Shown piece by piece: positions 31,243 to 42,159 of a DNA stretch of 64,000 bases. This DNA comes from Escherichia phage nepoznato. Position numbers and translations under genes: made by a program. How positions within the stretch are numbered: position 1 is the stretch's first letter; every line of letters begins with the position of its first letter. Where the stretch lies: the sequence record NC_052658.1. The stretch is one strand, 5' to 3'. The notes beneath the pieces were generated by a model. The model did no database searches, was not told the origin of the DNA, and saw nothing but the letters and a program-made list of their open reading frames with translations.

Positions 31243-31617
31243 TTATTCAATGCAAGCATTATTTGCATCTTCAATTCTGTCTTTCACCCACTGAAGACGT
31301 AACGTGTTGGTATGACACGCCAAGTTTATACACTCTGAAAGGTAATCCATGCAATCTGCATTGAACGGAAGATTGTAGTCCAGCCCTGCACATGTAAATT
31401 GTTTCCTCATTTCATATTTCAAACGGTCTAACAAATGATCACGCCATCTTCTATCTTCTTCTCTAGTTGTCTCACCAACAAAATCATCTACGTAATCTAC
31501 CAGACAACCACATAAGCCACTCGTTGTGCGATTCATTGCAGGATAGTTGGCAATCCATGCTTTATAGAAGCGAAGCAATGTTGCACTACTCAACGGAACA
31601 TTTTTACTCTCTTGCAC
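31243..31617 (-). CDS. hypothetical protein, GLC.CL/LPFN paralog family
   Basis: FYKAWIANYP...GLCGCLVDYV ... LPFN. Confidence 0.5.
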   Translation of the reverse strand: MQESKNVPLSSATLLRFYKAWIANYPAMNRTTSGLCGCLVDYVDDFVGETTREEDRRWRDHLLDRLKYEMRKQFTCAGLDYNLPFNADCMDYLSECINLACHTNTLRLQWVKDRIEDANNACIE

Positions 31618-31955
31618 GATAATCTCCTCTCATCATTAGCCATCTTTCATGGCAATCATCAATCACCAACATCATACGATCAATCTTCGGCAATTACAAT
31701 CGAATTATCATAGGGGATTCCTATCAATTATCCCATATATACTGATTATTTTTGACACCCCACTCTTGTATAAAAAGTAACCCAAAATATCTACGGGGAG
31801 AGATTATTTCGGGACACCCTGTTTCATGGCAATCATGGCAAGAATATCTAATAGAATCAATATCATATGGCAAAAATCATGGCGTATACGTAAGAAGTGC
31901 TTAACGCGAATTTTCGGGCCGTCAGGTCCACGCAGCGACAATTCCCAAATATCAT

Positions 31956-31979
31956 GCGAATGAGAATAATTATCATTCG
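31956..31979. promoter_or_regulatory. Fur-box-like palindrome
   Basis: GCGAATGAGAATAATTATCATTCG; GATAAT/ATTATC hexamer arrangement. Confidence 0.3.
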
Positions 31980-32137
31980 TATTCAATGACTTATGCAAGG
32001 CTCATGCCAACATAGCGACAAGGTGGGCCACTTGATTATAAATCACACAAACACTTATTTATCAATGGTTTGGCAACTTCATCATATGACGGAACATTGT
32101 CAACTGATCCCGCTCATGACAAGCAGACTATTATTTA

Positions 32138-32156
32138 TATGAGAATGATTATTATT
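32138..32156. promoter_or_regulatory. Fur-box-like element
   Basis: ATGAGAATGATTATTATT. Confidence 0.25.
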
Positions 32157-32213
32157 TAAACGTTTATTAACATAAAAACTAAAATAAATCAAGATTATTC
32201 TGATTTTATTTAC

Positions 32214-32410
32214 GTTTAAGAGAAGGTGCTCAACATCCTACCGGATCGCCGTTGGCAATCCTGCGGATATTTACGCCCCCATGATTAAGGTTTATCTCTT
32301 TTCTTAGTGCTCAACATATCGCGTAGCGATAGTATTCGCCCCCGTGATATTTGCTCTTCTCTTAGTGCTCAACATTCCCGCCTGTGGCGGTAACATTTCG
32401 CCCCCAAAAT
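32214..32410. repeat. three direct iterons: CTTAGTGCTCAACAT box, variable short hairpin, (A)TTTCGCCCCC box
   Basis: Boxes near 32225, 32304 and 32363, each followed 30-40 bp later by CGCCCCC; spacing about 60-70 bp. Confidence 0.6.
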
Positions 32411-32453
32411 TATTGACTTTTATTCTATTATGTGCATAGTGTGCAATGTATCG

Positions 32454-32472
32454 GAATGATGATAATCATCCT
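32454..32472. promoter_or_regulatory. Fur-box-like palindrome
   Basis: GGAATGATGATAATCATCC (GATGAT-A-ATCATC). Confidence 0.3.
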
Positions 32473-32779
32473 CCCATTGCCCCCATAATTATTGCCATGC
32501 TAATTGTTTCCTTATGTAATTATCACAATGACTATTGTTATTGCGCTAATGTTATGATCTTGGTAATTACATATAATGCTAATAATAAGCCAGCGCAATA
32601 AGTGTAAGCGTCATTACGCTTGCAATTATTGCAAGCTACGCAGTAACAAGAAATAACCATCACCGATGGTTATGATTGTTGGGGTGTAGTTGGCTTATTA
32701 TTAGCTCGCTACGTGTCCGGCGTAGCGTGCTAATGATGAGTCTGTAAATGATTCATTGTGTAATGATTTCATTCAGGCA

Positions 32780-32995
32780 CTATTTTGCTAATAGTTATTA
32801 TTTTAATGGTTTCGTTTGTTATTGTTCGTTAGTTGGTTGTTTTGTCGTGTTATCGTTATCTTGCTTAGTATTCATCATGGTTTGATTGTTTGTCGTTATC
32901 AATCATCTTGCTATTATTCCTTTGATTATGATTAGTTTGCTTATTGTTTTATGTTGTTTGTTGGTTAGTTGTTGCGAACTATTATCAACATTATA
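32780..32995. repeat. T/G-skewed low-complexity tract (GTT/TTG-rich, nearly A-free on plus strand)
   Basis: About 200 bp of gtttgttattgttcgttagttggttgttttgtcg... with extreme strand asymmetry. Confidence 0.5.
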
Positions 32996-33030
32996 ATTAT
33001 GCGCTTATATTGCATAGATAATCATGGGTA

Positions 33031-33050
33031 GATGATAATGGTTATCATTG
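33031..33050. promoter_or_regulatory. Fur-box-like element
   Basis: GATGATAATGGTTATCATTG. Confidence 0.25.
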
Positions 33051-33271
33051 CACTAGAAAGGAGGTAAAAGGGTGTTTTTGATGGTTTGTTGTTGGTTGTT
33101 GATCGATTTTAACCGCTCTAAATGGCTCTCTAACAGCCTGTAACCCTGGGAGGTATGGTTATTCGTTTGCTGGTTGATTAGCTCGATACCGCGATTTATT
33201 CAGTTTTGTTCTGTGTCGGTTTTTCATAGGCGGAAGCTATCAATATTGTTCGGGCAAAAATAAAGGGCGCT

Positions 33272-33292
33272 TAGTGCGCCCCTTGTATAATC
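33272..33292 (-). terminator. intrinsic terminator (minus strand) ending the cassette array
   Basis: On minus strand GGGGCGCACUAAGCGCCC hairpin then UUUAUUUUU. Confidence 0.6.
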
Positions 33293-33661
33293 TTACTTTG
33301 TGCTGTTGTAAACGTTATCGCGTTCAACCATCACCGCAAGGCGGATCAGTTGATCAGTTGTATCGCGTAAATTGTCGGGCCATGTTTTACTGTTCCAGCT
33401 ATCCAGGTTTGATTGTATATAGGTTTCAATGGCTTGATCCATATTATCAAACAAGTTTTCCTCCAGGCTCTCGGCTGTTTCACACTGGAAAGCATTAGCG
33501 ACACTATTAATCAATAAGCAAGCCAGTAAATCAGCGTTGCGCCAATTTTTACGGATAGTTTCATCTGTCAGATAACCAACGAGATTAACCTTTGCGCCAG
33601 TGGTGGACGTTGCGATCACTTCTTGCGCTTTTTCAACTGCTTTAATTGCTGATTTGCTCAT
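33293..33661 (-). CDS. hypothetical protein (cassette 1 ORF)
   Basis: Track ORF 33293-33739 runs into the promoter; start moved to ATG (MSKSAIK) after RBS AAAGAGG. Confidence 0.5.
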   Translation of the reverse strand: MSKSAIKAVEKAQEVIATSTTGAKVNLVGYLTDETIRKNWRNADLLACLLINSVANAFQCETAESLEENLFDNMDQAIETYIQSNLDSWNSKTWPDNLRDTTDQLIRLAVMVERDNVYNSTK

Positions 33662-33677
33662 CTTCTTTTCCTCTTTG

Positions 33678-33739
33678 TGGGCTTGCTGTATTGCTCGCCC
33701 TACGTGATAAATAATAATATAAGGGTGATCCCGTGTCAA
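33678..33739 (-). promoter_or_regulatory. PeSL-like early promoter with weak leader hairpin (unit 1)
   Basis: Minus strand TTGACA, 17 bp, TATTAT, TATCACGTAGG, weak GC hairpin, RBS. Confidence 0.5.
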
Positions 33740-33877
33740 TAGGTAGAATTGTAAAGATTTGATAGTTTATCTCTTTGATGCTTTGTTGTTTGATAGATGT
33801 TAGCTATCAATATATAGCGGGGTCGTCCGGTGATTATCTTCCCTGTTTCCAGTGCCGCCCGTTCAATAAGCATAACA

Positions 33878-33905
33878 AAAAACAGGACAAAAACAAGCCC
33901 TGTTT
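33878..33905 (-). terminator. probable intrinsic terminator (minus strand)
   Basis: ACAGG...CCUGU hairpin followed by U-run on minus strand. Confidence 0.35.
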
Positions 33906-33913
33906 TGTAAAGA

Positions 33914-34117
33914 TTAGATGATCTGCATATCTTCCACGATAATTTCTAATTTCCAAACAAGATGATCTAAGCTCCCTGATAAAAATGATTCCGATACATA
34001 ACCGCCATCGGACACCGTAGCAAGGATCTCGCCATTTGCTTGCTCTTTGATTTGAACATCCAGGCGGTTAGCCTTTGCTTTGTTCAGGACGGCGATCAGG
34101 CGGTTAGCTGTAGTCAT
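33914..34117 (-). CDS. hypothetical protein (cassette 2 ORF)
   Basis: Start moved to internal ATG (MTTANRL) 20 nt after leader hairpin. Confidence 0.5.
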   Translation of the reverse strand: MTTANRLIAVLNKAKANRLDVQIKEQANGEILATVSDGGYVSESFLSGSLDHLVWKLEIIVEDMQII

Positions 34118-34140
34118 GATGTTTCTCTCTTCTGTTGTGA

Positions 34141-34197
34141 GCGGCACTATTGCCGCCCTACGTGATAAACTTTACTACCTGTTGCGCCTGCTGTCAA
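34141..34197 (-). promoter_or_regulatory. PeSL-like early promoter with leader stem-loop (unit 2)
   Basis: Minus strand TTGACA, 17 bp, TAAAGT, TATCACGTAGG, GCGGCA-AUAG-UGCCGC. Confidence 0.6.
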
Positions 34198-34198
34198 A

Positions 34199-34303
34199 CT
34201 ATTTTTTCTTTGCTTCCATTCGTCTAAGGTTACGGCTTGACTTGTTACGCAAGGCGCTCAAATCATCATAACCTTTAAAAGGTTGCATATTGTTCGGATT
34301 CAT
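34199..34303 (-). CDS. small basic protein (about 34 aa)
   Basis: Minus ORF MNPNNMQPFKGYDDL... with RBS AAGGGG; stop abuts -35 of unit 2; approximate. Confidence 0.3.
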   Translation of the reverse strand: MNPNNMQPFKGYDDLSALRNKSSRNLRRMEAKKK

Positions 34304-34313
34304 GCTACGCCCC

Positions 34314-34592
34314 TTAACGGTTATAAACGTCGTGAATAGTGATAAAGGCGCTACGACCATAAGCCGCCAAATCGGGATTGATCCAAGTGTTATCTAACAG
34401 TGTTTCAAGGACGATAGAATCATCATGAATAGCATCATAGAAATCAGGATGTATGATCGTTTCAATATCGTCCGGTGTTAGTTCCCAATTAAGGTTGCAA
34501 ACCGCTAAAACGTCTACCAATAACTTCCAATCTTGCAAATTAGTGGTTAATACTGTTTTCATTTCTTCGGTAGTGAGTTTAACGATGGTCAT
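34314..34592 (-). CDS. hypothetical acidic protein (cassette 3 ORF)
   Basis: 92-aa ORF about 20 nt after leader hairpin. Confidence 0.5.
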   Translation of the reverse strand: MTIVKLTTEEMKTVLTTNLQDWKLLVDVLAVCNLNWELTPDDIETIIHPDFYDAIHDDSIVLETLLDNTWINPDLAAYGRSAFITIHDVYNR

Positions 34593-34612
34593 GATATTTT
34601 CTCTTTTTGATG

Positions 34613-34673
34613 AGGCGGAAAGTGTTCCCGCTCTCGATGTGAAACATTATACAACACTAAAAACTGATTGCAA
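34613..34673 (-). promoter_or_regulatory. PeSL-like early promoter with leader stem-loop (unit 3)
   Basis: Minus strand TTGCAA, 16 bp, TATAAT, TTTCACATCGAGA, GCGGGAA..TTCCGCC hairpin. Confidence 0.55.
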
Positions 34674-34683
34674 GTGTTTTTAA

Positions 34684-35013
34684 TTATCGCTTGCTATTCT
34701 CTTTCTCTACTTCCCCGATAGCATCGCAAAATTGATTGATAACATCAGGGTGAACGTCAATAGCGTCAAACAATCCGCTATTAGTTGCATTTTGTAAAGC
34801 AATAGACAATTCAGCCAGGGCGTTCAATTGTTTTACACGGAATTGATCGCGGATTGAATCCATATATTCCATCACTGCACTTTCCAGTGTTTCCCATGTA
34901 GTCGCTGCACCTTCGCCTACAGTTACATCCCACAAATTAGACTCGATTTGAGTCAGTACTACAGTTGGGCGACCAGCAACAACACTGCGGGCTAATTCGA
35001 TTTCATTAAACAT
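34684..35013 (-). CDS. hypothetical protein (cassette 4 ORF)
   Basis: 109-aa ORF. Confidence 0.5.
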   Translation of the reverse strand: MFNEIELARSVVAGRPTVVLTQIESNLWDVTVGEGAATTWETLESAVMEYMDSIRDQFRVKQLNALAELSIALQNATNSGLFDAIDVHPDVINQFCDAIGEVEKENSKR

Positions 35014-35020
35014 TTTATTT

Positions 35021-35079
35021 TCCTCTTTGTGGGGAGAACTATTCTCCCCTTCATGTAAAACAGTCTACAGGTTTATTTC
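35021..35079 (-). promoter_or_regulatory. PeSL-like early promoter with leader stem-loop (unit 4)
   Basis: Minus strand TTGACA, 16 bp, TAGACT, TTTTACATGAA, GGGGAGAA-UAG-UUCUCCCC. Confidence 0.6.
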
Positions 35080-35089
35080 TCAATGTCAA

Positions 35090-35269
35090 CTATTTATTAT
35101 CGGGATTGTAAGCCAGGACCGCGCCACTTGCTTTCACCGCCCCAGCCTCATAGCTGCGTAAATCTTCCTCGGTGATATTCATTGCGATCACTTCCTCGAC
35201 CTCTACGCCAGTAGCAAGGGCGATCTCTTTGATGATATTTGATGTTTTGATAATGTCGATAGTTTTCAT
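35090..35269 (-). CDS. hypothetical protein
   Basis: Track ORF 35090-35317; start moved to ATG (MKTIDIIK) after AAGGGG. Confidence 0.45.
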   Translation of the reverse strand: MKTIDIIKTSNIIKEIALATGVEVEEVIAMNITEEDLRSYEAGAVKASGAVLAYNPDNK

Positions 35270-35279
35270 AGTAAGCCCC

Positions 35280-35399
35280 TTACAGAAGAATAGCCGCGAT
35301 GGTTGAAATGAAAGCAATAACAGCGACGATGATCATCATGTTTTTACCTTCGGTTACTGCTACGTTTTCGGTGCTGTATTCTACGGTATATTTGCTCAT
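35280..35399 (-). CDS. small tail-anchored membrane peptide (about 39 aa; cassette 5 ORF)
   Basis: MSKYTVEYSTENVAVTEGKNMMIIVAVIAFISTIAAILL; first ORF after unit 5 leader. Confidence 0.4.
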   Translation of the reverse strand: MSKYTVEYSTENVAVTEGKNMMIIVAVIAFISTIAAILL

Positions 35400-35415
35400 C
35401 TTTCTACCCTCGTTT

Positions 35416-35475
35416 GTGGTTGGCTGTTGTCGCCGCCCTATGTATTTAATATACACTACCACGGCAGCATTGCAA
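35416..35475 (-). promoter_or_regulatory. PeSL-like early promoter with weak leader hairpin (unit 5)
   Basis: Minus strand TTGCAA, 16 bp, TATATT, TACATAGG, GC-rich leader. Confidence 0.5.
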
Positions 35476-35488
35476 GTTTATTTTGCAA

Positions 35489-35779
35489 TTATTTTTCTTC
35501 TGTAAAAAGCCCATCATTAACAACGGCGGCGATGATTTCACGGGCCATTGATTCGGGAAACGGTAGGCTATAATCCTGGCTTGTTTCATCTTCGCAAGAT
35601 ACCCAATGATAAGCTAATGAATAATACCCCTTAGAAACGGTTTTCAGGCTAACAATGATCACGGTGTTTTGTTCGTTGGTAAACGTCGCCGTGATGGTCT
35701 GGTCGTTTTGCACCATATCCATCAAACGGGCGTTATCATTTACCAGGGAAAACATTAGCACGGTGTTAGCTTTACTCAT
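35489..35779 (-). CDS. hypothetical protein (cassette 6 ORF)
   Basis: Start moved to ATG (MSKANTV) 20 nt after leader hairpin. Confidence 0.5.
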   Translation of the reverse strand: MSKANTVLMFSLVNDNARLMDMVQNDQTITATFTNEQNTVIIVSLKTVSKGYYSLAYHWVSCEDETSQDYSLPFPESMAREIIAAVVNDGLFTEEK

Positions 35780-35799
35780 GATTGCATCCTCAAAGGGGC

Positions 35800-35854
35800 G
35801 CGGCACCATTGCCGCCCTACACGATAACTATAACACAATGTAAAACAGGATCAA
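35800..35854 (-). promoter_or_regulatory. PeSL-like early promoter with leader stem-loop (unit 6)
   Basis: Minus strand TTGATC, 16 bp, TATAGT, ATCGTGTAGG, GCGGCA-AUGG-UGCCGC. Confidence 0.55.
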
Positions 35855-36057
35855 CCTTTATTTTTCCACGGTGTCAGCTTGTTAATCATTGGTGATAAAT
35901 AGCGTTTACCAACGTAAAACAGTACGCCAACTGATGCAACGGCGGCGACCTCATGCATAGCCGACGGGAAACGGGTATCATAATAAGATCCAATAATAGC
36001 GATAGCGGCAACGGCTGCAACGTCGATAATGATTTTTTCTTGTTTTGCGGTGATCAT
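35851..36057 (-). CDS. small membrane protein (cassette 7 ORF)
   Basis: 68 aa with hydrophobic AAVAAIAIIGS and VAAVASVGVLFYVG segments. Confidence 0.5.
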   Translation of the reverse strand: MITAKQEKIIIDVAAVAAIAIIGSYYDTRFPSAMHEVAAVASVGVLFYVGKRYLSPMINKLTPWKNKG

Positions 36058-36079
36058 AATATTTACCTTTTTGTATGGT

Positions 36080-36136
36080 GGGGAACTATTCCCCGCCTGA
36101 TGTAATACAGTTTAACAGGTCCGGTTATGGTGTCAA
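36080..36136 (-). promoter_or_regulatory. PeSL-like early promoter with leader stem-loop (unit 7)
   Basis: Minus strand TTGACA, 16 bp, TAAACT, TATTACATCAGGC, GGGGAA-UAG-UUCCCC. Confidence 0.6.
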
Positions 36137-36142
36137 CCGTTT

Positions 36143-36328
36143 TTAAAGATATTTTATGCTAATAACGTTTTCCGGTTTAACCTTGTTATAATGTGCATCA
36201 ACATAGATCAAACCATCGTCAGAAAAGCCCAGGATCACGCCCTGCGCAATAAAACCGTATTCGTCACGGTAACGCACGGCTATTTTTAATGTTGCGCTGT
36301 ACGCTGTTTTAAGCTCGTTTAAAGTCAT
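36143..36328 (-). CDS. hypothetical protein
   Basis: 61-aa ORF after a terminator-like hairpin and RBS GAGGAT. Confidence 0.45.
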   Translation of the reverse strand: MTLNELKTAYSATLKIAVRYRDEYGFIAQGVILGFSDDGLIYVDAHYNKVKPENVISIKYL

Positions 36329-36357
36329 TTTTGTTTATCCTCTACATGTAAAAAGAA

Positions 36358-36381
36358 AGGGCGCTTGGTGCGCCCTTGTTA
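36358..36381 (-). terminator. intrinsic terminator or attenuator inside the array
   Basis: On minus strand AAGGGCGCACCAAGCGCCCUU then UUCUUUUU; near-identical to 33272 hairpin. Confidence 0.5.
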
Positions 36382-36383
36382 TG

Positions 36384-36530
36384 TTAATCCTCTAAATCCA
36401 TCCAATTATATTTGTCACTCTTCCCGCGCTTTGTTTTATTACGCTTGTCGCCTTTGCGGATCACTTCCTCGTTCCAGGCCTTGCGGATCTTGGAAGATTG
36501 AATTTTTTCTGCGCGATTAGATGTATTCAT
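36384..36530 (-). CDS. small basic protein (about 48 aa; cassette 8 ORF)
   Basis: MNTSNRAEKIQSSKIRKAWNEEV...; RBS AAGAGGAAAC; below track cutoff. Confidence 0.4.
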   Translation of the reverse strand: MNTSNRAEKIQSSKIRKAWNEEVIRKGDKRNKTKRGKSDKYNWMDLED

Positions 36531-36550
36531 TTTGTTTCCTCTTCATATGA

Positions 36551-36603
36551 GCGGCACCATTGCCGCTATATTGTTAATTTAAACTGTTTTGTAAAATTGT
36601 CAA
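36551..36603 (-). promoter_or_regulatory. PeSL-like early promoter with leader stem-loop (unit 8)
   Basis: Minus strand TTGACA, 16 bp, TAAATT, GCGGCA-AUGG-UGCCGC. Confidence 0.55.
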
Positions 36604-36609
36604 GGTTTA

Positions 36610-36960
36610 TCATTCATAAGAGCAAGCAAGGATCACGCCTGCAATATAAAGCCAATAATTTTCCCTTTCTCGTTGGATTTTATCATCGCGGCTATTCTCT
36701 TTAATGTATCCCCAGGATGTTAACAGGCGATCAATTTCCCAATATTCGAAAGCGATATTGATATCTGATGGCAAACCTTGTAACCAACTTGCCAGGGCGC
36801 GGACTATTGATCCGTTATATCGTTTTTGATTATCAGGGTACCAGTACTCTGATTCAAAGCGGCGCATCAGTTCGGCTATCTTCTCTTTTTCGCCAGTGAT
36901 GCCATAGTCGATTGATGCTAGGATGTAACCTTTAATTTCGTTTTGTGCTTTCATGGTCAA
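36610..36960 (-). CDS. hypothetical protein
   Basis: 116-aa ORF immediately downstream of 36967-37188 (co-transcribed). Confidence 0.5.
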   Translation of the reverse strand: MTMKAQNEIKGYILASIDYGITGEKEKIAELMRRFESEYWYPDNQKRYNGSIVRALASWLQGLPSDINIAFEYWEIDRLLTSWGYIKENSRDDKIQRERENYWLYIAGVILACSYE

Positions 36961-36966
36961 TCTCTC

Positions 36967-37188
36967 TTATTTACTTACAACCAGTTGATAACCGTTTTCT
37001 ACATTGCTAAACACTGTTAGCCCGTCGTCGCGCTCACTCATCAACAAGCAAGGCGATAACATGCGTTCGGCAGCTTTACACTCATTATAAGCGGCAGTGA
37101 TGTCTCCTGCTGCCTTGTCTTCTGTAGTAAATGTCTCGTTTACGTAAACCTGACCAGCAACAACGGCGACAATAGCAAAAGTAATCAT
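36967..37188 (-). CDS. hypothetical protein (cassette 9 ORF)
   Basis: 73-aa ORF with N-terminal hydrophobic segment. Confidence 0.5.
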   Translation of the reverse strand: MITFAIVAVVAGQVYVNETFTTEDKAAGDITAAYNECKAAERMLSPCLLMSERDDGLTVFSNVENGYQLVVSK

Positions 37189-37221
37189 GATGTTTCCTTG
37201 TTAATAGTGGTTTCTCTTCTC

Positions 37222-37259
37222 TATAGCGCCCATTATAAAGCGCTATAACGAAAAGTCAA
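37222..37259 (-). promoter_or_regulatory. sigma70 promoter with -10 inside an 8-bp-arm palindrome (operator-like; unit 9)
   Basis: Minus strand TTGACT, 16 bp, TATAAT; TATAGCGC-N10-GCGCTATA inverted repeat spans the -10. Confidence 0.55.
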
Positions 37260-37262
37260 CGA

Positions 37263-37430
37263 TTATTTTTTAAGGCTTAAAGTACCTAACTTGTCAGCAT
37301 GACGCAGACCAGGGAAGATCCATTTGCCTGATTCATCTTTTACCGGAGCTTTAAGCGTAGCGCCCAGGTTGGCGGCGTTAACTTTACGTGCAACGTTGCG
37401 AGCGGCTTCACGGGTAGCGCAAGTGATCAT
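37263..37430 (-). CDS. small protein (about 55 aa; cassette 10 ORF)
   Basis: MITCATREAARNVARKVNAANLG...; 20 nt after unit 10 hairpin; below track cutoff. Confidence 0.35.
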   Translation of the reverse strand: MITCATREAARNVARKVNAANLGATLKAPVKDESGKWIFPGLRHADKLGTLSLKK

Positions 37431-37454
37431 GATGTTTTCCTCTTCTCTTTGTTA

Positions 37455-37516
37455 GGCGGTGGACCATTCCGCCGCCTTGATGTAATACAGTTTACTCTTT
37501 TTCTTTCCGGTGTCAA
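37455..37516 (-). promoter_or_regulatory. PeSL-like early promoter with leader stem-loop (unit 10)
   Basis: Minus strand TTGACA, 16 bp, TAAACT, TATTACATCAAGG, 9-bp stem with G-U wobble and AUGG loop. Confidence 0.6.
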
Positions 37517-37526
37517 CAATCTTTTT

Positions 37527-37754
37527 TCAGATTAATTCATCCAGGCATAACAGGCGATCAACGTTGAGATCGGTTAGGCTGATGGTTGGCACCTGGTAGG
37601 ATTCGATGTACTCAACGCTCGACCATTGCCCGAAGTTAGCGACCGCCCAGCTATTCAAGGAAGAGTGAAGATCATCCCCTTTCTTCTCGGTGATAACTGC
37701 TACTACCTGGGAAGTGCCAACGGTGCCGGATACGCGAACAATATTGATAGCCAT
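37527..37754 (-). CDS. hypothetical protein (cassette 11 ORF)
   Basis: 75-aa ORF 20 nt after leader hairpin. Confidence 0.5.
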   Translation of the reverse strand: MAINIVRVSGTVGTSQVVAVITEKKGDDLHSSLNSWAVANFGQWSSVEYIESYQVPTISLTDLNVDRLLCLDELI

Positions 37755-37777
37755 GATTTTTCTCTCTTCTGTTAGGC

Positions 37778-37832
37778 GGGGCGCTTGTCGCCCCTATGTG
37801 ATACATCTTACACTAATTTTAAACGTTGTCAA
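37778..37832 (-). promoter_or_regulatory. PeSL-like early promoter with leader stem-loop (unit 11)
   Basis: Minus strand TTGACA, 16 bp, TAAGAT, TATCACATAGG, GGGCGACAAGCGCCCC hairpin. Confidence 0.6.
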
Positions 37833-37927
37833 ATTATTTTCTATTTCTTCCGTAATAGCCCAATTTATGATCTAAGCTAAAACGTTTTGTTAGATAGGTA
37901 GAACGATGTTTCATTTTTATATCTCCT

Positions 37928-38167
37928 TTACATTCCAACCATCGCGGCGCGGATCGCTGTAGTGCTATACTTGAAACCGTCTGGAGTTTTATCTTGTCCA
38001 GTTTGTTCCAGGAATAACATCATATCACGGGCAGCATCATTACGATTAGTATTAGCGGCGATAAATTCTTTCGCCAACCGATATAACGATTCATCGTTAT
38101 TAATCCAAAGGCTTACATTCCAATGAGTTTTATTTTTGTGACCTAAGAACATTTTTGATTTAGCCAT
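37928..38167 (-). CDS. hypothetical protein (cassette 12 ORF)
   Basis: 79-aa ORF. Confidence 0.5.
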   Translation of the reverse strand: MAKSKMFLGHKNKTHWNVSLWINNDESLYRLAKEFIAANTNRNDAARDMMLFLEQTGQDKTPDGFKYSTTAIRAAMVGM

Positions 38168-38192
38168 GATGTTAATCTCTTTTTTCAGTGAG

Positions 38193-38251
38193 GCGGGAAG
38201 TGTTCCCGCTCTCTATGTAATACAGTTTACTCTTTTTATTCGTGCTGTCAA
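38193..38251 (-). promoter_or_regulatory. PeSL-like early promoter with leader stem-loop (unit 12)
   Basis: Minus strand TTGACA, 16 bp, TAAACT, TATTACATAGAGA, GCGGGAA-CAC-UUCCCGC. Confidence 0.6.
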
Positions 38252-38257
38252 TGCTTT

Positions 38258-38623
38258 TTATAAATCTTTTTTACGTTTAACATCGCTCGCATGACTGTAT
38301 ACAGTGATCCCATTATCACGGCAAAAACGGGAAAGATACGCGCCGCGTGAAAACTCTTTACCTTCCATATTAATAACCTTGCTAAATTCTTCCAGGGCGA
38401 CGGTATCAAAATGATCACCATAACCATATTGAAACGGAACGTTAACCACCTCGATCAGTTTACCGCCGATCTCAACGTCAACCATTAAAGAAAAATATGT
38501 ATTACCGTAGGACTGTTGAAACCAACGACGGGCGCTAATATGCACCGCCTCAATGCTGGATAGTTCAATTTTAGCCGTGTCAGCCAGGGTAGCATAAGAG
38601 GAAACATTAATATTAATAGCCAT
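38258..38623 (-). CDS. hypothetical protein (cassette 13 ORF)
   Basis: 121-aa ORF. Confidence 0.5.
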   Translation of the reverse strand: MAININVSSYATLADTAKIELSSIEAVHISARRWFQQSYGNTYFSLMVDVEIGGKLIEVVNVPFQYGYGDHFDTVALEEFSKVINMEGKEFSRGAYLSRFCRDNGITVYSHASDVKRKKDL

Positions 38624-38645
38624 GATGATAACCTTTTTATTGTTG

Positions 38646-38701
38646 GCGGCACCATTGCCGCCCTACGTGATAAACTATAACAGAATTTTAAACAATGTCA
38701 A
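38646..38701 (-). promoter_or_regulatory. PeSL-like early promoter with leader stem-loop (unit 13)
   Basis: Minus strand TTGACA, 16 bp, TATAGT, TATCACGTAGG, GCGGCA-AUGG-UGCCGC. Confidence 0.6.
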
Positions 38702-38711
38702 ACGTTTTTTC

Positions 38712-38957
38712 TTAGTTTGCGAAATATGGCGCGGCGGCTGATGCCGTTAAGCTCCAAGTGATTTGACTATCGATCAAGTATTCTTCATTCTTGATCCGCA
38801 CGGTATCAATCGAGAAGTTACTAAAAGGTTTACTTTTAATTTTACGAACAACCGTTACACGACGGTTATTTTTCATCTCTTTTAACTGAATCCAGGCGAA
38901 ACCTTTTTCATTAACGAAAATTTCATTGTGGTTAGTGATAGATGATAAGTGTTTCAT
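38712..38957 (-). CDS. hypothetical protein (cassette 14 ORF)
   Basis: Start moved to ATG (MKHLSSI); the track N-terminus YHVGRR is just the translated leader. Confidence 0.5.
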   Translation of the reverse strand: MKHLSSITNHNEIFVNEKGFAWIQLKEMKNNRRVTVVRKIKSKPFSNFSIDTVRIKNEEYLIDSQITWSLTASAAAPYFAN

Positions 38958-38980
38958 GATTTTTCTCTCTTCTGTTTTGA

Positions 38981-39040
38981 GCGGTGGACCATTCCGCCGC
39001 CCTACGTGATACATATTACTACTTTTTCAAACGTTGTCAA
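38981..39040 (-). promoter_or_regulatory. PeSL-like early promoter with leader stem-loop (unit 14)
   Basis: Minus strand TTGACA, 16 bp, TAATAT, TATCACGTAGG, 8-bp stem with AUGG loop. Confidence 0.6.
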
Positions 39041-39049
39041 CAATCTTTT

Positions 39050-39331
39050 TCAACTATATGATCCGCACCGTTCGCAATAGTGATCTTCTTCCTCTTCCAC
39101 TACTTGACCGACAAAATGATCAACCTTTGATTTCAGGCTTTTATAATTACTTTCTACTTCCTGTAGTCGTCGTTGGTAGTATTCCAGGGCTTGCACATAT
39201 GCCGCTTGTTCTGTTTTAGCTTGCATCGCTAAATTCATGCCGCGCGTGTCATCATACAACCAATAACCATCATTGCATTCACTGATTGACAGTGTGGGGC
39301 TTAGTTTTTCGTGACGGATAACCTTGCTCAT
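39050..39331 (-). CDS. hypothetical protein with C-terminal Cys pair
   Basis: Track ORF 39050-39364; probable start MSKVIRHEKL; ends CERCGSYS. Confidence 0.45.
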   Translation of the reverse strand: MSKVIRHEKLSPTLSISECNDGYWLYDDTRGMNLAMQAKTEQAAYVQALEYYQRRLQEVESNYKSLKSKVDHFVGQVVEEEEDHYCERCGSYS

Positions 39332-39341
39332 AGTGTGCGCC

Positions 39342-39446
39342 TTATAGAATGATTGAAACAACAATTGCTACAGTGATCCACACTGGAACGGCTAACAAAA
39401 TAGCGTTAATCGTTCCAACCGTCAAGCTATTTCCTTTATTAATCAT
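39342..39446 (-). CDS. small membrane peptide (about 34 aa; cassette 15 ORF)
   Basis: MINKGNSLTVGTINAILLAVPVWITVAIVVSIIL; RBS AAGAGG; approximate. Confidence 0.35.
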   Translation of the reverse strand: MINKGNSLTVGTINAILLAVPVWITVAIVVSIIL

Positions 39447-39475
39447 TGTAAGCCTCTTGCATAATTTCACTATGA

Positions 39476-39532
39476 GCGGCACCATTGCCGCCCTACGTGG
39501 TAAATATTATGCCAGTGGCGGCGATATGTCAA
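39476..39532 (-). promoter_or_regulatory. PeSL-like early promoter with leader stem-loop (unit 15)
   Basis: Minus strand TTGACA, 17 bp, TAATAT, TACCACGTAGG, GCGGCA-AUGG-UGCCGC; 42-bp core identical to unit 18. Confidence 0.6.
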
Positions 39533-40086
39533 AGACTATTTTCAAAGTTTTCTAGGGCGATCCTTTTTTCTTCCTCTGTCGGCTGATAATCAGGAAAAGC
39601 ATCAGCACACAACAACGGCGGGATCTCTTCGTACTCTTCCTCTTCCGTTGTCTCCTCGTCTTCCTCCTGGGCTATGGCTGCAATTTTGGCTAATTTTCTT
39701 TCAGCTTGAATCAATTTACCATCAAGTACGTTTTTTGCCATGTTGTAAGCGGTCCAGGTGATGCGCTTACTTTCCAGGGCCTGATCGAGCGCCGCTATCT
39801 TGCTGGGGTATTCATCCAGGACACGAAAAGCCGGATCAACTTTGTACAAAGGATTATCTTTCGCGCCGTCGCTCGCATCTTCCGCACTGGATAAATCAGC
39901 GTTACCATTTGCCAGCCAGCCAGGGCGCACATAACGCGCTTTTATGTTGCCGTTACTACGTGCTAACCTGTTACCTATTTGCTCACCGCTATATCCCGTG
40001 GATTCATCGATAAGATGATCGGGAATGATGCGCGGATCATCTGCTTCATGTTTTACCCAAGACTGGATCACATATTCGCGGCCCAT
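39529..40086 (-). CDS. hypothetical protein with acidic C-terminal region
   Basis: Start moved to ATG (MGREYV) after AGGTGG; co-transcribed with 40088-40345. Confidence 0.5.
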   Translation of the reverse strand: MGREYVIQSWVKHEADDPRIIPDHLIDESTGYSGEQIGNRLARSNGNIKARYVRPGWLANGNADLSSAEDASDGAKDNPLYKVDPAFRVLDEYPSKIAALDQALESKRITWTAYNMAKNVLDGKLIQAERKLAKIAAIAQEEDEETTEEEEYEEIPPLLCADAFPDYQPTEEEKRIALENFENSL

Positions 40087-40087
40087 A

Positions 40088-40345
40088 TTAACCACCTTTT
40101 TTCAACAATCGGCATACTTTAAAAAGACTTGCTGAATCCTTGCAAGGGTAGAAAGATGTACGATAATCACGTACGCCAACCTTGCGGATCTCGATGTTTT
40201 CGCATGTTGTTTGATCAAAGATATTTATTTCATCACGCCCCCTTATATAAACATAGTGGGGATGTATTAACGCATATTTTGCTAATCTGTAAAAAGCGTT
40301 ATCTTTGAACGCGATCACGTGACCTTTTAATTTGATGTAAAACAT
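40088..40345 (-). CDS. hypothetical protein (cassette 16 ORF)
   Basis: 85-aa ORF after RBS AAGGTGG. Confidence 0.5.
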   Translation of the reverse strand: MFYIKLKGHVIAFKDNAFYRLAKYALIHPHYVYIRGRDEINIFDQTTCENIEIRKVGVRDYRTSFYPCKDSASLFKVCRLLKKGG

Positions 40346-40363
40346 TCTACCACCTTACAAATA

Positions 40364-40418
40364 GCGGGAACTATTCCCGCTTTATGTAACATATTAACAA
40401 ATTAGTCGTTAATGTCAA
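40364..40418 (-). promoter_or_regulatory. PeSL-like early promoter with leader stem-loop (unit 16)
   Basis: Minus strand TTGACA, 16 bp, TAATAT, TTACATAAA, GCGGGAA-UAG-UUCCCGC. Confidence 0.6.
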
Positions 40419-40421
40419 GCC

Positions 40422-40694
40422 TTAAAGCAAAAACGCTACATCTTGCGCTTTTAATGTAGTGTCAACCATTTTTGGGCTTTTATAATCAACAAAACGCGCG
40501 GTTTTTTCAATAGCAAAACCGAGATAATCTTGTTTATTGAATTTACATTCTTTCTTAAATGTTTCCCGCGCCACGGTGATCGCTGCGTCCAGGGATAAAC
40601 GCCCGTCAATGTTGATATTTGCGAAAGATCCGCCACCGCTCATAGGTTTACCAGTGGTGCCAGCTACGATCATTGTTGCGCTATATGATGCCAT
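40422..40694 (-). CDS. hypothetical protein (cassette 17 ORF)
   Basis: Start moved to ATG (MASYSATMIV). Confidence 0.5.
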   Translation of the reverse strand: MASYSATMIVAGTTGKPMSGGGSFANINIDGRLSLDAAITVARETFKKECKFNKQDYLGFAIEKTARFVDYKSPKMVDTTLKAQDVAFLL

Positions 40695-40719
40695 GATTAT
40701 AATCTCTCTTCTGTTGTGA

Positions 40720-40780
40720 GCGGCTGAACCATTCCGCCGCCCTATGTGATACATCTTATCAGGTTGTTGGTTGTTGTCAA
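40720..40780 (-). promoter_or_regulatory. PeSL-like early promoter with leader stem-loop (unit 17)
   Basis: Minus strand TTGACA, 16 bp, TAAGAT, TATCACATAGG, 8-bp stem with AUGG loop. Confidence 0.6.
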
Positions 40781-40786
40781 TACTTT

Positions 40787-41438: not shown

Positions 41439-41440
41439 TC

Positions 41441-41469
41441 TTGACAAGCCCAGGGATCGGGCTTATACT
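41441..41469 (+). promoter_or_regulatory. sigma70-type promoter with PeSL-like leader, no downstream ORF
   Basis: TTGACA, 17 bp, TATACT, then GTTTTACATACAG and GC-rich hairpins; no plus ORF of 20 aa or more before 42.2 kb. Confidence 0.5.
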
Positions 41470-41600: not shown

Positions 41601-41699
41601 ATAATCGCTTGCTTTCCTGGCTGGATCTGTTATTCTTATTACATGGCGAGGGGACACGGGAGCGCGAGACAAACACCGCCCCTGCGCGTCATTCTCTAA

Positions 41700-41720
41700 A
41701 TGAGAATGATTATCATTTAC
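41700..41720. promoter_or_regulatory. Fur-box-like palindrome (AATGAT-T-ATCATT)
   Basis: GAGAATGATTATCATTTAC; perfect 6-1-6 inverted repeat. Confidence 0.35.
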
Positions 41721-41759
41721 TTTATTAAATAAGAATCAATCTCATTTATAAACCTAAAT

Positions 41760-41778
41760 GCGAATCATTATCATTTGC
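41760..41778. promoter_or_regulatory. Fur-box-like element
   Basis: GCGAATCATTATCATTTGC. Confidence 0.3.
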
Positions 41779-42159
41779 ATTTCCACATGAGAACTCTTCT
41801 CATTCCCATCTGCATAAATTTTTGTAAACTTTAAATTTTGCTTTTGTACTTTCATTTTTGTAAAAGCAAAAAAACTTTAAATACTGTGGGCGCGCAAAAT
41901 TTTTAAAATTTTCCTTGACTTTTGAGTTTTGTTTTGTATCTGACATTTTAAGATAATTTTCCTAAACTTTAAATTTTGGTTTTCAACTTTCACTTTTGTA
42001 AATTCTTAAAAAGTTTAAATAATTTGAGGGATTTTTGAGATAATGGATAGTGGGAATTTGATATAACCTTTAATCTTATTAGTAGACCTTCAGGAACCCA
42101 CCTAGATCGAATCCTGGTGATGCAAACTGAAAAAGACAAGGGTTTGTATAGGACAAAAT

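What the first reader, a model, noticed from the sequence alone, without database searches (positions are those of the whole stretch)
31956..33050. Non-coding island upstream of the cassette array with Fur-box-like palindromes
The 1.7 kb between the two minus-strand gene blocks has no convincing ORF but several AATGAT-N-ATCATT or GATGAT-A-ATCATC palindromes and GATAAT/ATTATC hexamer runs (near 31956, 32138, 32454, 33031). The E. coli Fur consensus GATAATGATAATCATTATC contains AATGATAATCATT, so these are Fur-box-like. They could be host Fur sites (iron-responsive control) or operators for a phage regulator.
Basis: partly seen in the sequence, partly recalled or inferred. Interest (0 to 1): 0.55.

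Follow-up and report, generated by a model that had tools for sequence, protein, structure and literature searches.

The report
Host Fur boxes at phage genome ends
The palindromes are real, conserved, top-scoring copies of the E. coli iron-repressor (Fur) binding site, placed in the terminal repeat and two non-coding islands of a phAPEC8-like lytic phage, and the same boxes make up unexplained palindromes in phage T5's injection-stop region, so lytic coliphages probably read host iron status or use Fur at their genome ends.

Summary
The window is a Phapecoctavirus (phAPEC8-like) genome. I built a Fur weight matrix de novo from 11 footprinted E. coli promoters. Dinucleotide shuffles give 0.008 such hits. 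The fourth site (32454) is weak and not conserved.

The 'island' is the collapsed genome-end junction. Sites A and B lie inside the ~329-bp direct terminal repeat (31902-32230).

A 149-kb relative has strong hits only in these two islands. The boxes persist at syntenic positions in other genera where the flanks no longer align.

Equivalent boxes occur in rV5-like phages, a 346-kb jumbo contig and T5-like phages. In T5 they are the annotated palindromes E/G/I and direct repeat C of the injection-stop region.

These phages encode no Fur homologue, and no paper in the library links Fur to them.

Best reading: genuine host Fur operators (about 0.8). Their function is inferred, most likely iron-dependent gating of non-coding transcription units. 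None of the strong cassette promoters carries a box.

The parts
31618..33292 (.). Non-coding island 1. It is the collapsed junction of the genome ends: left-end leader 31618-31901, one copy of the terminal repeat, and right-end non-coding DNA 32231-33292.
   Evidence: ORF list. Annotation of anhysbys. Several GenBank records start or end at window 31902-31911 and hold the region twice.
31902..32230 (.). Direct terminal repeat (~329 bp), present once in this assembly. The virion orientation is the window's minus strand. The end motifs TTAACGCGA and TTAAGAGAAnnTGCT|CAACA are conserved in arall and KP2025.
   Evidence: Both ends of the Schickermooser record read directly. Korf 2019 reports a 328-bp terminal repeat. 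Alignments.
31959..31983 (.). Fur box A: AATGAGAATAATTATCATT, 21.7 bits, with an overlapping second site offset by 6 bp (31965-31983, 12.4 bits). It lies inside the terminal repeat, 57 bp from the right terminus.
   Evidence: The same position is kept in arall (21.7 bits), KP2025 (AATGCGAATCATTCTCATT, 19.8 bits) and phiWec181.
32138..32156 (.). Fur box B: TATGAGAATGATTATTATT, 18.4 bits. It lies inside the terminal repeat, 74 bp from the other repeat boundary. Only one half-site keeps the contacted C/G.
   Evidence: arall has a perfect TGATAATGATTATCA core at the equivalent place.
32455..32473 (.). Exact 13-bp palindrome GATGATAATCATC.
   Evidence: Absent from phiWec181 and PsgM04F in alignment A2.
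32578..32745 (+). Conserved multi-hairpin element of about 170 nt, closed by a perfect 15-bp long-range helix (GCTAATAATAAGCCA/TGGCTTATTATTAGC). It is probably a structured RNA on the plus strand and lies upstream of Fur box D.
   Evidence: Inverted repeat I2. Fold z-score -9.4 on the plus strand and -7.4 on the minus strand. 13 of 61 pairs show compensatory changes, and the G-U pairs favour the plus strand. The 124-bp core is the only part of the island that blastn finds in other genera.
32969..32997 (+). Candidate sigma-70 promoter TTGTTG-17-TATAAT. Fur box D would lie at about +27 to +45 of its transcript.
   Evidence: My promoter scan, 9.8 bits. This is a prediction only; the -10 is TATAGT in Schickermooser.
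33031..33049 (.). Fur box D: GATGATAATGGTTATCATT, 18.6 bits, in the right-end non-coding DNA. Apart from position 6 (G in fecI, T here), it differs from the E. coli fecI operator (TATGAGAATGGTTATCATT) only at its outermost base.
   Evidence: Invariant in 5 Phapecoctavirus sequences. KP2025 has TATGAGATTGATTATCATT (18.6 bits) at the aligned position. arall has two boxes 58 bp apart there.
33262..33284 (.). Hairpin that ends the minus-strand gene 33293-33739 and bounds the island. It could also stop plus-strand transcripts.
41441..41469 (+). Strongest promoter-like site of island 2 (TTGACA-17-TATACT), reading towards the Fur array, which starts at about +224. A second candidate, TTGCTT-16-TATTCT at 41609-41636, puts the first box at about +57.
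   Evidence: 14.5 and 7.1 bits. The promoter, a GC-rich leader and a Fur box form a module that recurs in rV5-like phage and in a jumbo contig.
41699..41804 (.). Array of four Fur boxes at an exact 29-bp period: 41699 (22.5 bits), 41728 (16.1), 41757 (20.7) and 41786 (12.0). It lies in the second non-coding island (41439-42244), about 9.8 kb from the right genome end, and is followed by a 75% A+T repeat-containing stretch (41805-42060).
   Evidence: blastn finds this array in T5-like phages. The 41757 unit is 28/29 identical to the T5 palindrome G unit.

Best explanation
The palindromes are genuine high-affinity operators for the host ferric uptake regulator.

Proposed mechanism:
- In iron-replete cells, Fe2+-Fur dimers should occupy them. 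Most sites carry a second site offset by 6 bp, so two dimers per site are likely.
- The collapsed genome holds six to seven strong boxes. A virion molecule holds about nine, because boxes A and B lie in the terminal repeat and so are present at both ends.
- The boxes do not sit on the phage's strong early promoters. They sit in the two non-coding islands, downstream (+27 to +224) of predicted plus-strand promoters. These promoters drive short structured non-coding transcripts running antisense to the main gene direction.
- The most likely function is therefore an iron-dependent gate or roadblock. Bound Fur would limit transcription through these islands: the ncRNA 3' extensions, antisense read-through into the neighbouring early genes, or transcription into the A+T-rich repeat region next to the array. 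Loss of Fur binding in iron-starved hosts would open the gate.

What is shown: sequence identity with Fur operators, enrichment, exclusive placement, conservation, recurrence in unrelated coliphages, and absence of a phage Fur.

What is inferred: that Fur binds, and what the binding does.

My estimates: Fur binds, about 0.8. Given binding, transcriptional gating is the main function, about 0.45.
For: Match to Fur operators:
- A PWM learned without prior consensus from 11 footprinted E. coli promoters gives AATGATAATnATTATCATT (gene list from Chen 2007).
- Its top five hits in the window are exactly the island sites, at 18.4-22.5 bits. The training sites score 10.5-20.2 bits.
- Shuffles give 0.008 hits at 18 bits or more.
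- Control: in 16 kb of the E. coli ent-fep cluster, hits of 12 bits or more fall only in the four known Fur-regulated intergenic regions. One of these is the fepB footprint, whose site was not among the sites the model was built from, although the model was learned on that same fepB-entC intergenic region.

Placement and conservation:
- In the whole 149-kb genome of anhysbys, the six hits of 16 bits or more all lie in the two islands; the next best hit is 13.6 bits.
- Within the genus, 5 of 57 site columns vary against 459 of 1334 elsewhere (p = 2e-5).
- Boxes persist at syntenic positions in Justusliebigvirus arall and Klebsiella phage KP2025, whose flanks are not alignable.

Fur-specific details:
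- The guanine read by Arg57 and the thymines read by Tyr56 (Deng 2015) are kept in both half-sites of A, D, 41699 and 41757.
- Second sites offset by 6 bp are present, as in natural Fur clusters (Chen 2007).
- Box D is nearly identical to the fecI operator.

Common host factor:
- Equivalent boxes occur in rV5-like phage, a 346-kb jumbo contig and T5-like phages.
- No Fur homologue is found in any Stephanstirmvirinae record.
- No T5 first-step-transfer protein has a homologue in this phage.

Gating geometry: strong predicted promoters lie 50-224 nt upstream of boxes in island 2, in rV5-like phage and in the jumbo contig.
Against: - No binding or expression data exist.
- The boxes do not overlap -35/-10 elements, which is where most E. 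coli Fur clusters sit (Chen 2007 reports 83% overlapping promoters).
- A regular 29-bp array of four separate 19-bp palindromes is unusual for host operators. It looks more like iterons or a dedicated binding array.
- For boxes A and B in the terminal repeat I found no conserved promoter.
- In T5 no strong promoter lies close upstream of the array; the nearest strong one is about 1.1 kb away on the other strand.
- No protein-coding gene lies downstream of the gated transcripts, so the regulated output is unknown.
- Promoter calls rest on a matrix I wrote from remembered frequencies.
- Fur is probably not essential for these phages. This is my inference from general knowledge: T5 is routinely grown on fur mutants.
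Confidence: 0.4

Rival explanations
1. Architectural role at the genome ends. Fur, or another protein bound to the boxes, builds a nucleoprotein structure. The phage would use it for DNA entry (an injection pause as at the T5 iss), for end processing or packaging next to the terminal-repeat boundaries, or for origin function. It would not be used for transcriptional control.
For: - Boxes A and B lie 57 and 74 bp from the two terminal-repeat boundaries.
- The T5 boxes lie in the iss region. The calculated first-step-transfer shear point (~9618) falls inside the array, next to paired DnaA boxes that Davison compares to oriC.
- The island 2 array is about 9.8 kb from the right end, close to the T5 first-step length. 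The DNA in between holds about 25 small genes, each with its own strong promoter.
- Four 19-bp palindromes at a fixed 29-bp period next to a 75% A+T repeat region resemble the lambda-type origin layout (the comparison is from my own knowledge).
Against: - In rV5-like phage and the jumbo contig the boxes sit in small promoter-to-terminator units, not obviously at ends.
- No DnaA boxes are present in the window islands.
- No initiator gene lies next to island 2.
- A cytoplasmic protein binding DNA that has already entered does not obviously stop further entry (inference).
- Whether phAPEC8-like phages inject in two steps is unknown.
Confidence: 0.2
2. The boxes are operators or iterons for a phage-encoded DNA-binding protein whose specificity happens to resemble, or mimics, that of Fur. 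Host Fur would be irrelevant.
For: - The array is regular, with a 29-bp period, and unlike host operators.
- Most phage boxes carry G at position 6 of the left half (AATGAGAAT), a minority variant in E. coli (3 of 11 training sites).
- The genome is full of small uncharacterised early proteins.
Against: - No Fur-family protein is found in any Stephanstirmvirinae record.
- T5's first-step-transfer proteins have no homologue here, yet the boxes are shared down to 28/29 identical units.
- Four unrelated phage groups that share only enterobacterial hosts carry them.
- Scores equal the best native operators, and the Fur-typical second site offset by 6 bp is present.
- The search for a phage binder was not exhaustive.
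Confidence: 0.15
3. Fur decoy. Replicating phage DNA, with 6-9 strong boxes per copy and hundreds of copies per cell, titrates Fur. This derepresses the host iron-uptake and iron-sparing regulon, which would feed the phage's iron-dependent ribonucleotide reductases.
For: - The genome carries many very strong boxes that are not tied to promoters.
- The phage encodes aerobic and anaerobic ribonucleotide reductases.
- Multicopy Fur boxes are known to titrate Fur in vivo (the Fur titration assay; established knowledge, mentioned in the papers).
Against: - T5 degrades host DNA within minutes of first-step transfer, so host derepression cannot be the purpose there.
- A decoy would not need conserved syntenic positions, a fixed 29-bp period, or placement behind promoters.
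- The pay-off would have to arrive within a short latent period (inference).
Confidence: 0.12
4. Chance A+T-rich palindromes in A+T-rich non-coding DNA.
For: The island is 63% A+T and rich in other repeats.
Against: Local dinucleotide shuffles of the islands give 0.003 and 0.000 hits at 18 bits or more, against 3 and 2 observed. The sites are conserved across genera.
Confidence: 0.01

Closest known systems
E. coli Fur operators (Fur boxes), for example fecI, entC and fepA-fes; the 19-bp single-dimer 'M9' model of Chen et al. 2007
   Same: Same 9-1-9 palindrome AATGATAATnATTATCATT. Scores equal or exceed those of footprinted sites. The contacted G and T positions are kept. Overlapping sites offset by 6 bp are present. 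Box D matches the fecI operator except at position 6 and at the outermost base.
   Different: Not placed over -35/-10 elements of iron-uptake promoters. They lie in a lytic phage's terminal repeat and non-coding islands. One set forms a 4 x 29-bp array. No iron-related gene is nearby.
Phage T5 'injection stop signal' region (Repeat Region 3): direct repeat C copies 1-4 and palindromes E, G, H and I (Wang 2005 annotation; Davison 2020)
   Same: The units are near-identical (28/29). They score 17.9-22.5 bits as Fur boxes. They lie in a large non-coding region between convergent transcription units, tied to a direct terminal repeat, about 9.5-9.8 kb from a genome end.
   Different: T5's repeat is 10 kb and contains the array. 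Here the repeat is 329 bp with two boxes, and the array lies 9.8 kb inside unique DNA. T5's paired DnaA boxes, IRC/IRD repeats, DRD repeats and nick site have no counterpart here. No T5 A1, A2 or other first-step-transfer protein homologue is found. Two-step injection is not known for this phage.
Promoter, structured leader and Fur box modules of rV5-like phages and a 346-kb jumbo phage contig (undescribed as far as I could find)
   Same: A consensus sigma-70 promoter, a 50-75-nt GC-rich leader, then one to three Fur boxes. This is the same layout as window 41609-41804.
   Different: The number and spacing of boxes differ. The jumbo units end in a terminator straight after the box. The leader sequences differ between groups.
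Lambda-type replication origin (four 19-bp inverted-repeat iterons next to an A+T-rich region)
   Same: Island 2 has four 19-bp palindromes at a fixed spacing followed by 75% A+T DNA with repeats. The comparison is from my own knowledge.
   Different: The sequence is that of a host repressor site, not of an initiator encoded around it. No origin data exist. The same boxes also occur singly.

Membership tests
Fur operator (E. coli Fur regulon cis-element) | Matches the 19-bp palindromic Fur model at the level of footprinted sites | tested here: met
   18.4-22.5 bits for five sites, against 10.5-20.2 bits for 11 native sites. Chance expectation 0.008.
Fur operator (E. coli Fur regulon cis-element) | Conserved guanine (Arg57 contact) and thymines (Tyr56 contact) in each half-site, within an A+T-rich narrow-groove context | tested here: met
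   ATG...CAT is kept in both halves of A, D, 41699 and 41757. Box B keeps it in one half only.
Fur operator (E. coli Fur regulon cis-element) | Clustered overlapping sites offset by 6 bp (hexamer arrays that bind two or more dimers) | tested here: met
   Secondary hits at +6: 31965 (12.4 bits), 41705 (11.5), 41763 (13.1). The same is seen in T5 at 9583 and 9618. Rule from Chen 2007.
Fur operator (E. coli Fur regulon cis-element) | Overlaps a sigma-70 promoter so that bound Fur occludes RNA polymerase | tested here: not met
   No promoter of 10 bits or more overlaps any box. Boxes lie +27 to +224 downstream of predicted promoters, or near none at all. This feature is typical of Fur operators but not universal.
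Fur operator (E. coli Fur regulon cis-element) | Bound by Fe2+/Mn2+-Fur in vitro or in vivo, with iron- or fur-dependent output | not testable with these tools
   Needs EMSA or footprinting, a Fur titration assay, ChIP, and RNA mapping in a fur-deleted host.
T5 iss-region repeat set | Sequence of the DRC / palindrome E, G, I units | tested here: met
   28/29 and 21/22 identities to the palindrome G unit. blastn links the arrays.
T5 iss-region repeat set | Accompanied by paired DnaA boxes in the IRC/IRD inverted repeats, and by DRD repeats | tested here: not met
   No TTWTNCACA in either island. No IRC/IRD or DRD counterparts were seen.
T5 iss-region repeat set | Marks the boundary of first-step DNA transfer, which depends on A1/A2 | not testable with these tools
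   No A1/A2 homologue. The injection mode of this phage is unknown.
Operators of a phage-encoded regulator | A cognate DNA-binding protein encoded by the phage | tested here: inconclusive
   No Fur-family gene in Stephanstirmvirinae. No protein shared with T5's first-step-transfer region. Other folds among about 280 mostly uncharacterised proteins were not screened.
Iteron-type replication origin | Regularly spaced repeats next to an A+T-rich unwinding region, with an initiator gene and origin activity | tested here: inconclusive
   Spacing (29 bp x 4) and the A+T-rich flank (75%) are met for island 2. No initiator gene is adjacent. Origin activity cannot be tested here.

The most novel reading that the evidence does not exclude
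Fur-box arrays are a shared module of lytic enterobacterial phages, several of which carry it in or beside direct terminal repeats. Host Fur would be the missing trans-acting factor at the T5 injection-stop region. By extension, phAPEC8-like phages would also enter in two steps. The right-terminal ~9.8 kb carries about 25 self-promoted small genes and would be a first-step-transfer segment. The 41699-41804 array would be its stop or restart signal, making DNA entry or the early-to-middle switch sensitive to host iron status.
Probability: 0.08. Interest if true: 0.9.

Novelty: new variant of a known kind. Interest (0 to 1): 0.68.

Why it matters
Fur boxes are textbook elements of bacterial iron-uptake promoters. 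Finding them as the strongest and only Fur-type sites of a 150-kb strictly lytic phage is unexpected. They are confined to the terminal repeat and two non-coding islands and are conserved across genera. The same boxes turn up in rV5-like, jumbo and T5-like phages.

In T5 they coincide with the annotated palindromes and direct repeat C of the injection-stop region. A recent analysis of that region called their function 'impossible to guess' and never mentions Fur.

If Fur binds, this gives a concrete and cheap test for a question about 40 years old: T5 first- and second-step transfer in fur-deleted or iron-chelated cells. It would also indicate that lytic coliphages sense host iron, which matters for phage behaviour in the iron-limited gut and for phage therapy. 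Several of these phages use Fur-regulated outer-membrane receptors.

Tried and rejected
- Classical 19-mer GATAATGATAATCATTATC with up to 3 mismatches: only one hit. The phage sites are in the register shifted by 3 bp, so I switched to a learned PWM.
- Rfam, at gathering and E-value thresholds, on the window and on both islands: nothing credible. No tRNAs.
- Small ORF behind a strong Shine-Dalgarno sequence at 33072-33143 (23 aa). Rejected as a gene: Schickermooser has an early stop, phiWec181 has lost the start codons, and KP2025 has no counterpart.
- Promoter overlap. The TTGCAT-18-GATAAT arrangements over boxes A and D score only 6.7 bits and are not conserved for A. No conserved promoter was found inside the terminal repeat.
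- Phage-encoded Fur: none. Proteins shared with T5's first-step-transfer region: none. DnaA boxes in the islands: none.
- blastn of the array against 5,426 E. coli genomes: only four weak hits. One lies 45 bp upstream of a plasmid DAHP-synthase gene (GATGATAATGATAATCATTTAC). Not informative.
- Literature: six searches and three full-text look-ups found no paper that links Fur with T5-like, rV5-like or phAPEC8-like phages. The library lacks most subscription journals, so earlier mention elsewhere cannot be excluded.
- Practical note: loci fetched in parallel did not all reach the Python sandbox. I carried sequences in through DNA alignment.
Full report
**What the window is.** Megablast of 31600-33300 finds 74 phage records at 90-98% identity, nearly all Phapecoctavirus (phAPEC8-like, Stephanstirmvirinae, ~150 kb myophages of E. 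coli). The window has 36-44% G+C, no tRNA and no Rfam family at gathering threshold.

**The observation.**
- The gap between the minus-strand gene 31243-31617 and the minus-strand gene 33293-33739 is 1,675 bp. It has no ORF of 65 aa or more, and most related records annotate nothing there.
  - AATGAGAATAATTATCATT (31959)
  - TATGAGAATGATTATTATT (32138)
  - GATGATAATCATC (32458)
  - GATGATAATGGTTATCATT (33031)
- The repeat finder groups the first, second and fourth as one family (D2).
- The 7-1-7 Fur core TGATAATNATTATCA with up to 2 mismatches occurs 7 times in 64 kb against 0.69 expected. Three hits are in this island and two lie in a second non-coding island near 41.7 kb.

**A Fur matrix that does not depend on my memory.**
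- I took the list of footprinted E. coli Fur targets from Chen et al. 2007 (PMC2189734). I fetched the 11 promoter regions from NC_000913.3.
- A palindromic one-site-per-sequence motif search started from 600 random seeds. It converged on AATGATAATnATTATCATT, the single-dimer register of Chen et al..
- Scanned over the window, the five best hits are 41699 (22.5 bits), 31959 (21.7), 41757 (20.7), 33031 (18.6) and 32138 (18.4). Next come 41728 (16.1) and, lower in the ranking, 41786 (12.0).
- The native training sites score 10.5-20.2 bits, or 8.3-19.2 in leave-one-out.
- In 500 dinucleotide-preserving shuffles the mean number of hits at 18 bits or more is 0.008 (5 observed). At 16 bits or more it is 0.07 (6 observed). 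Shuffling each island on its own gives 0.003 and 0.000.
- Control: in 16 kb of the E. coli ent-fep cluster, hits of 12 bits or more fall only in the four known Fur-controlled intergenic regions. One of these is the fepB footprint, whose site was not among the sites the model was built from, although the model was learned on that same fepB-entC intergenic region.

**What the island really is.**
- Several GenBank records start or end at window 31902-31911 and contain the region twice (Schickermooser, WPEC4/6, BI-EHEC, Mt1B1_P17, KKP 3954).
- Korf et al. 2019 report a 328-bp terminal repeat for Schickermooser. Reading both ends of that record shows the repeat runs from AGCAAGTTCTCTTAAACG to TTCGCGTTA. 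This maps to window 32230 down to 31902.
- The island is therefore the collapsed junction of the genome ends. It consists of the left-end leader (31618-31901), one copy of the direct terminal repeat (31902-32230) and about 1.06 kb of right-end non-coding DNA (32231-33292).
- Boxes A and B lie inside the repeat, 57 and 74 bp from its two boundaries, so they are present at both ends of the virion DNA. Box D lies 800 bp into the right-end DNA.
- The boundary motifs (GCTTAACGCGA, and TTAAGAGAAnnTGCT|CAACA) are conserved in arall and KP2025.

**Exclusive placement and conservation.**
- In the complete 149,335-bp genome of the close relative anhysbys, the only hits of 16 bits or more are three in island 1 and three in island 2. 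The next best hit anywhere is 13.6 bits.
- Among five Phapecoctavirus sequences, 5 of 57 box columns vary against 459 of 1334 other island columns (Fisher p = 2e-5).
- In Justusliebigvirus arall, blastn recognises only a 124-bp block of the island. Even so, the island carries AATGAGAATAATTATCATT (21.7 bits) and a perfect TGATAATGATTATCA core at the positions of A and B, and two boxes 58 bp apart at the position of D.
- The more distant Klebsiella phage KP2025 has AATGCGAATCATTCTCATT (19.8 bits) aligned with A and TATGAGATTGATTATCATT (18.6 bits) aligned with D.
- The sequence drifts but the Fur score is maintained. This is the signature of a selected binding site.

**Is the binder Fur?**
- The co-crystal work of Deng et al. 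2015 shows Arg57 reading a conserved guanine and Tyr56 reading thymines. Lys15 reads the narrow A+T minor groove, and two dimers sit on the classical box.
- The phage boxes keep ATG...CAT in both halves; box B keeps it in one half only.
- Most boxes carry a second site offset by 6 bp (31965, 41705, 41763). Natural Fur clusters show the same 6-bp offset (Chen 2007).
- Box D differs from the fecI operator at position 6 and at its outermost base.
- tblastn with E. coli Fur against 50,697 phage records finds no homologue in any Stephanstirmvirinae phage.

**The same boxes in unrelated phages.**
- blastn of island 2 shows that 41472-41780 is conserved in 360 records from many genera. These include Justusliebigvirus, Klebsiella, Serratia, Proteus, Cronobacter, Salmonella and Pantoea phages and rV5-like Vequintavirinae. 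The array itself hits T5-like phages inside their ~10-kb terminal repeats.
- Yersinia phage phiR2-01 has eight hits of 15-20.7 bits at 9168-9400.
- In T5 (AY587007) the hits are 9473 (17.9 bits), 9577 (22.5) and 9612 (18.9). These are the annotated palindromes E, G and I and direct repeat C copies 1-4 of Repeat Region 3, the 'injection stop signal' region. The calculated first-step shear point is ~9618.
- In the first 50 kb of T5, the only other hit of 13 bits or more is at 231.
- The window unit TAAATGCGAATCATTATCATTTGCATTTC is 28/29 identical to the T5 unit.
- Davison's 2020 analysis of this region in 25 T5-like phages discusses DnaA boxes. [quoted passage not shown] It also does not occur in two recent T5/BF23 papers. 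Searches that combine Fur terms with T5-like, phAPEC8, rV5-like or Stephanstirmvirinae return nothing relevant.
- T5's first-step-transfer proteins (dmp, A1, A2 and others) have no homologue in the window or in anhysbys. What these phages share is the host, not a binder.
The hits include 108-146-kb and ~346-kb contigs, some with two or three boxes 26-69 bp apart.

**Where the boxes sit relative to transcription.**
- With a simple sigma-70 matrix (my own, built from remembered base frequencies), the cassette region 33300-41100 shows 28 minus-strand promoters of 8.5 bits or more, most of them TTGACA-16/17-TAnnnT. None carries a Fur hit of 12 bits or more.
- In the islands no promoter of 10 bits or more overlaps a box.
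- Instead, island 2 has a near-consensus plus-strand promoter (41441-41469, 14.5 bits) and a second candidate (41609-41636). These are followed by a GC-rich leader and then by the four-box array at about +224 and +57. After the array comes 75% A+T repeat-containing DNA and then a hairpin at ~42160-42200 that could act as a terminator in both directions (my reading of the sequence).
- The same layout (consensus promoter, GC-rich leader of 50-75 nt, then Fur box) appears twice in an rV5-like phage. It also appears twice in the 346-kb contig, where TTGCAA-17-TATAAT and TTGACA-17-TATTAT have boxes at about +50 to +78.
- In island 1, box D lies about +27 from a candidate plus-strand promoter (32969-32997). 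It also lies 290 nt downstream of a strongly structured, covarying plus-strand element (see below).
- For boxes A and B, and for T5, I found no convincing nearby promoter.

**Interpretation.**
- I consider it likely (about 0.8) that Fe2+-Fur occupies these sites in iron-replete hosts.
- The most economical function for boxes placed behind promoters of non-coding, antisense-oriented units is a roadblock or gate. It would open when Fur loses iron. It would control ncRNA length, antisense read-through into the flanking early genes, or transcription into the A+T-rich region.
- The rivals are set out separately: an architectural role at the ends, in entry or at an origin; a phage-encoded binder; and a Fur decoy. 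The T5 data argue against the decoy, because the host DNA is destroyed early. The regular 29-bp array and the link to terminal repeats keep the architectural reading alive.

**Comparison and novelty.**
- As sequences these are members of the Fur-operator class. They fail one typical, but not obligatory, feature: promoter overlap.
- Their deployment has not been described in anything I could search. It has three parts: exclusive placement in a lytic phage's terminal repeat and non-coding islands, periodic arrays, and recurrence in four phage groups including the T5 iss region. I therefore file the finding as a new variant of a known kind.
- The link to T5 makes an old open question directly testable.

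Noticed in passing
window 32578-32745 (+): A ~170-nt element folds into three hairpins closed by a perfect 15-bp long-range helix. The fold z-score is -9.4 on the plus strand. Across five sequences from three genera, 13 of 61 pairs show compensatory changes, and the G-U pairs favour the plus strand. Its 124-bp core is the only part of the island that blastn recovers in Justusliebigvirus and Klebsiella phages. It has no Rfam match. It is likely an undescribed structured RNA, or a single-stranded DNA signal, at the right genome end.
   Followed up: partly
window 32225-32410: Three tandem copies of a unit: tctcttAGTGCT|CAACAT, then a variable hairpin whose stems differ but still pair, then TTCGCCCCC. 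The first copy is the terminal-repeat boundary. Schickermooser has one copy. These may be alternative terminase cleavage sites or a variable-number end repeat, so the true repeat length in this phage could exceed 329 bp.
   Followed up: partly
window 41472-41700 (+): A GC-rich segment follows the near-consensus promoter 41441-41469. It is conserved at 70-90% identity in 360 phage records over many genera. The rV5-like phage has two copies of a related hairpin with a GGGAGACAA loop. Single-sequence folding is not exceptional (z = -1.5). It has no Rfam match. It may be a widespread phage ncRNA or a leader RNA of some other kind.
   Followed up: partly
window 33300-41100 (-): The 'cassette array' consists of about 25 small genes, most with their own near-consensus promoter (28 hits of 8.5 bits or more, typically TTGACA-16/17-TAnnnT). 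At the first two cassettes read (33690-33715 and 34155-34175) the promoter is followed by the motif TTATCACGTAGGGCG. The whole block spans the ~9.8 kb between the right genome end and island 2. In layout it resembles the T5 pre-early region, but no proteins are shared.
   Followed up: partly
window 32187-32205: A 9-1-9 palindrome AATCAAGATTATTCTGATT lies inside the terminal repeat and is conserved in arall and partly in KP2025. It resembles the Fur box but has C/G swapped at the contacted position, so it scores only 7.2 bits. It may be a site for a different protein.
   Followed up: no
window 32790-33000: A strongly skewed stretch (T 113, A 40, G 38, C 20 of 211 nt) of TTG/GTT-rich short repeats lies between the structured element and box D. 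It is conserved within the genus.
   Followed up: no
window 41818-41865 and 41963-42010: Two copies of a ~47-bp repeat (AAACTTTAAATTTTGnTTTTnnACTTTCAnTTTTGTAAA) lie 145 bp apart. Each starts at a TAAACT -10-like hexamer, in 75% A+T DNA next to the Fur array. This could be an unwinding element or further small transcription units.
   Followed up: no
window 33072-33143 (+): A strong Shine-Dalgarno sequence (AAGGAGG) is followed by a 23-codon ORF (MFLMVCCWLLIDFNRSKWLSNSL) just after box D. It is truncated in Schickermooser, has lost its start codons in phiWec181 and is absent from KP2025, so it is probably not a gene.
   Followed up: yes
L143 1201-1229 (E. coli plasmid NZ_CP146664.1, 46094-46122): A Fur-box-like sequence GATGATAATGATAATCATTTAC lies 45 bp upstream of a plasmid-borne DAHP synthase gene. 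It is 26/29 identical to the window's 41699 unit. It is presumably an iron-regulated host promoter.
   Followed up: no
L097 and L027 (IMG/VR contig 2595698293_000001, 346 kb): Every small unit in this jumbo-phage stretch is punctuated by the palindrome CAGTACTG, which occurs more than a dozen times in 1.1 kb, often right after the Fur box. This is an unexplained second motif.
   Followed up: no
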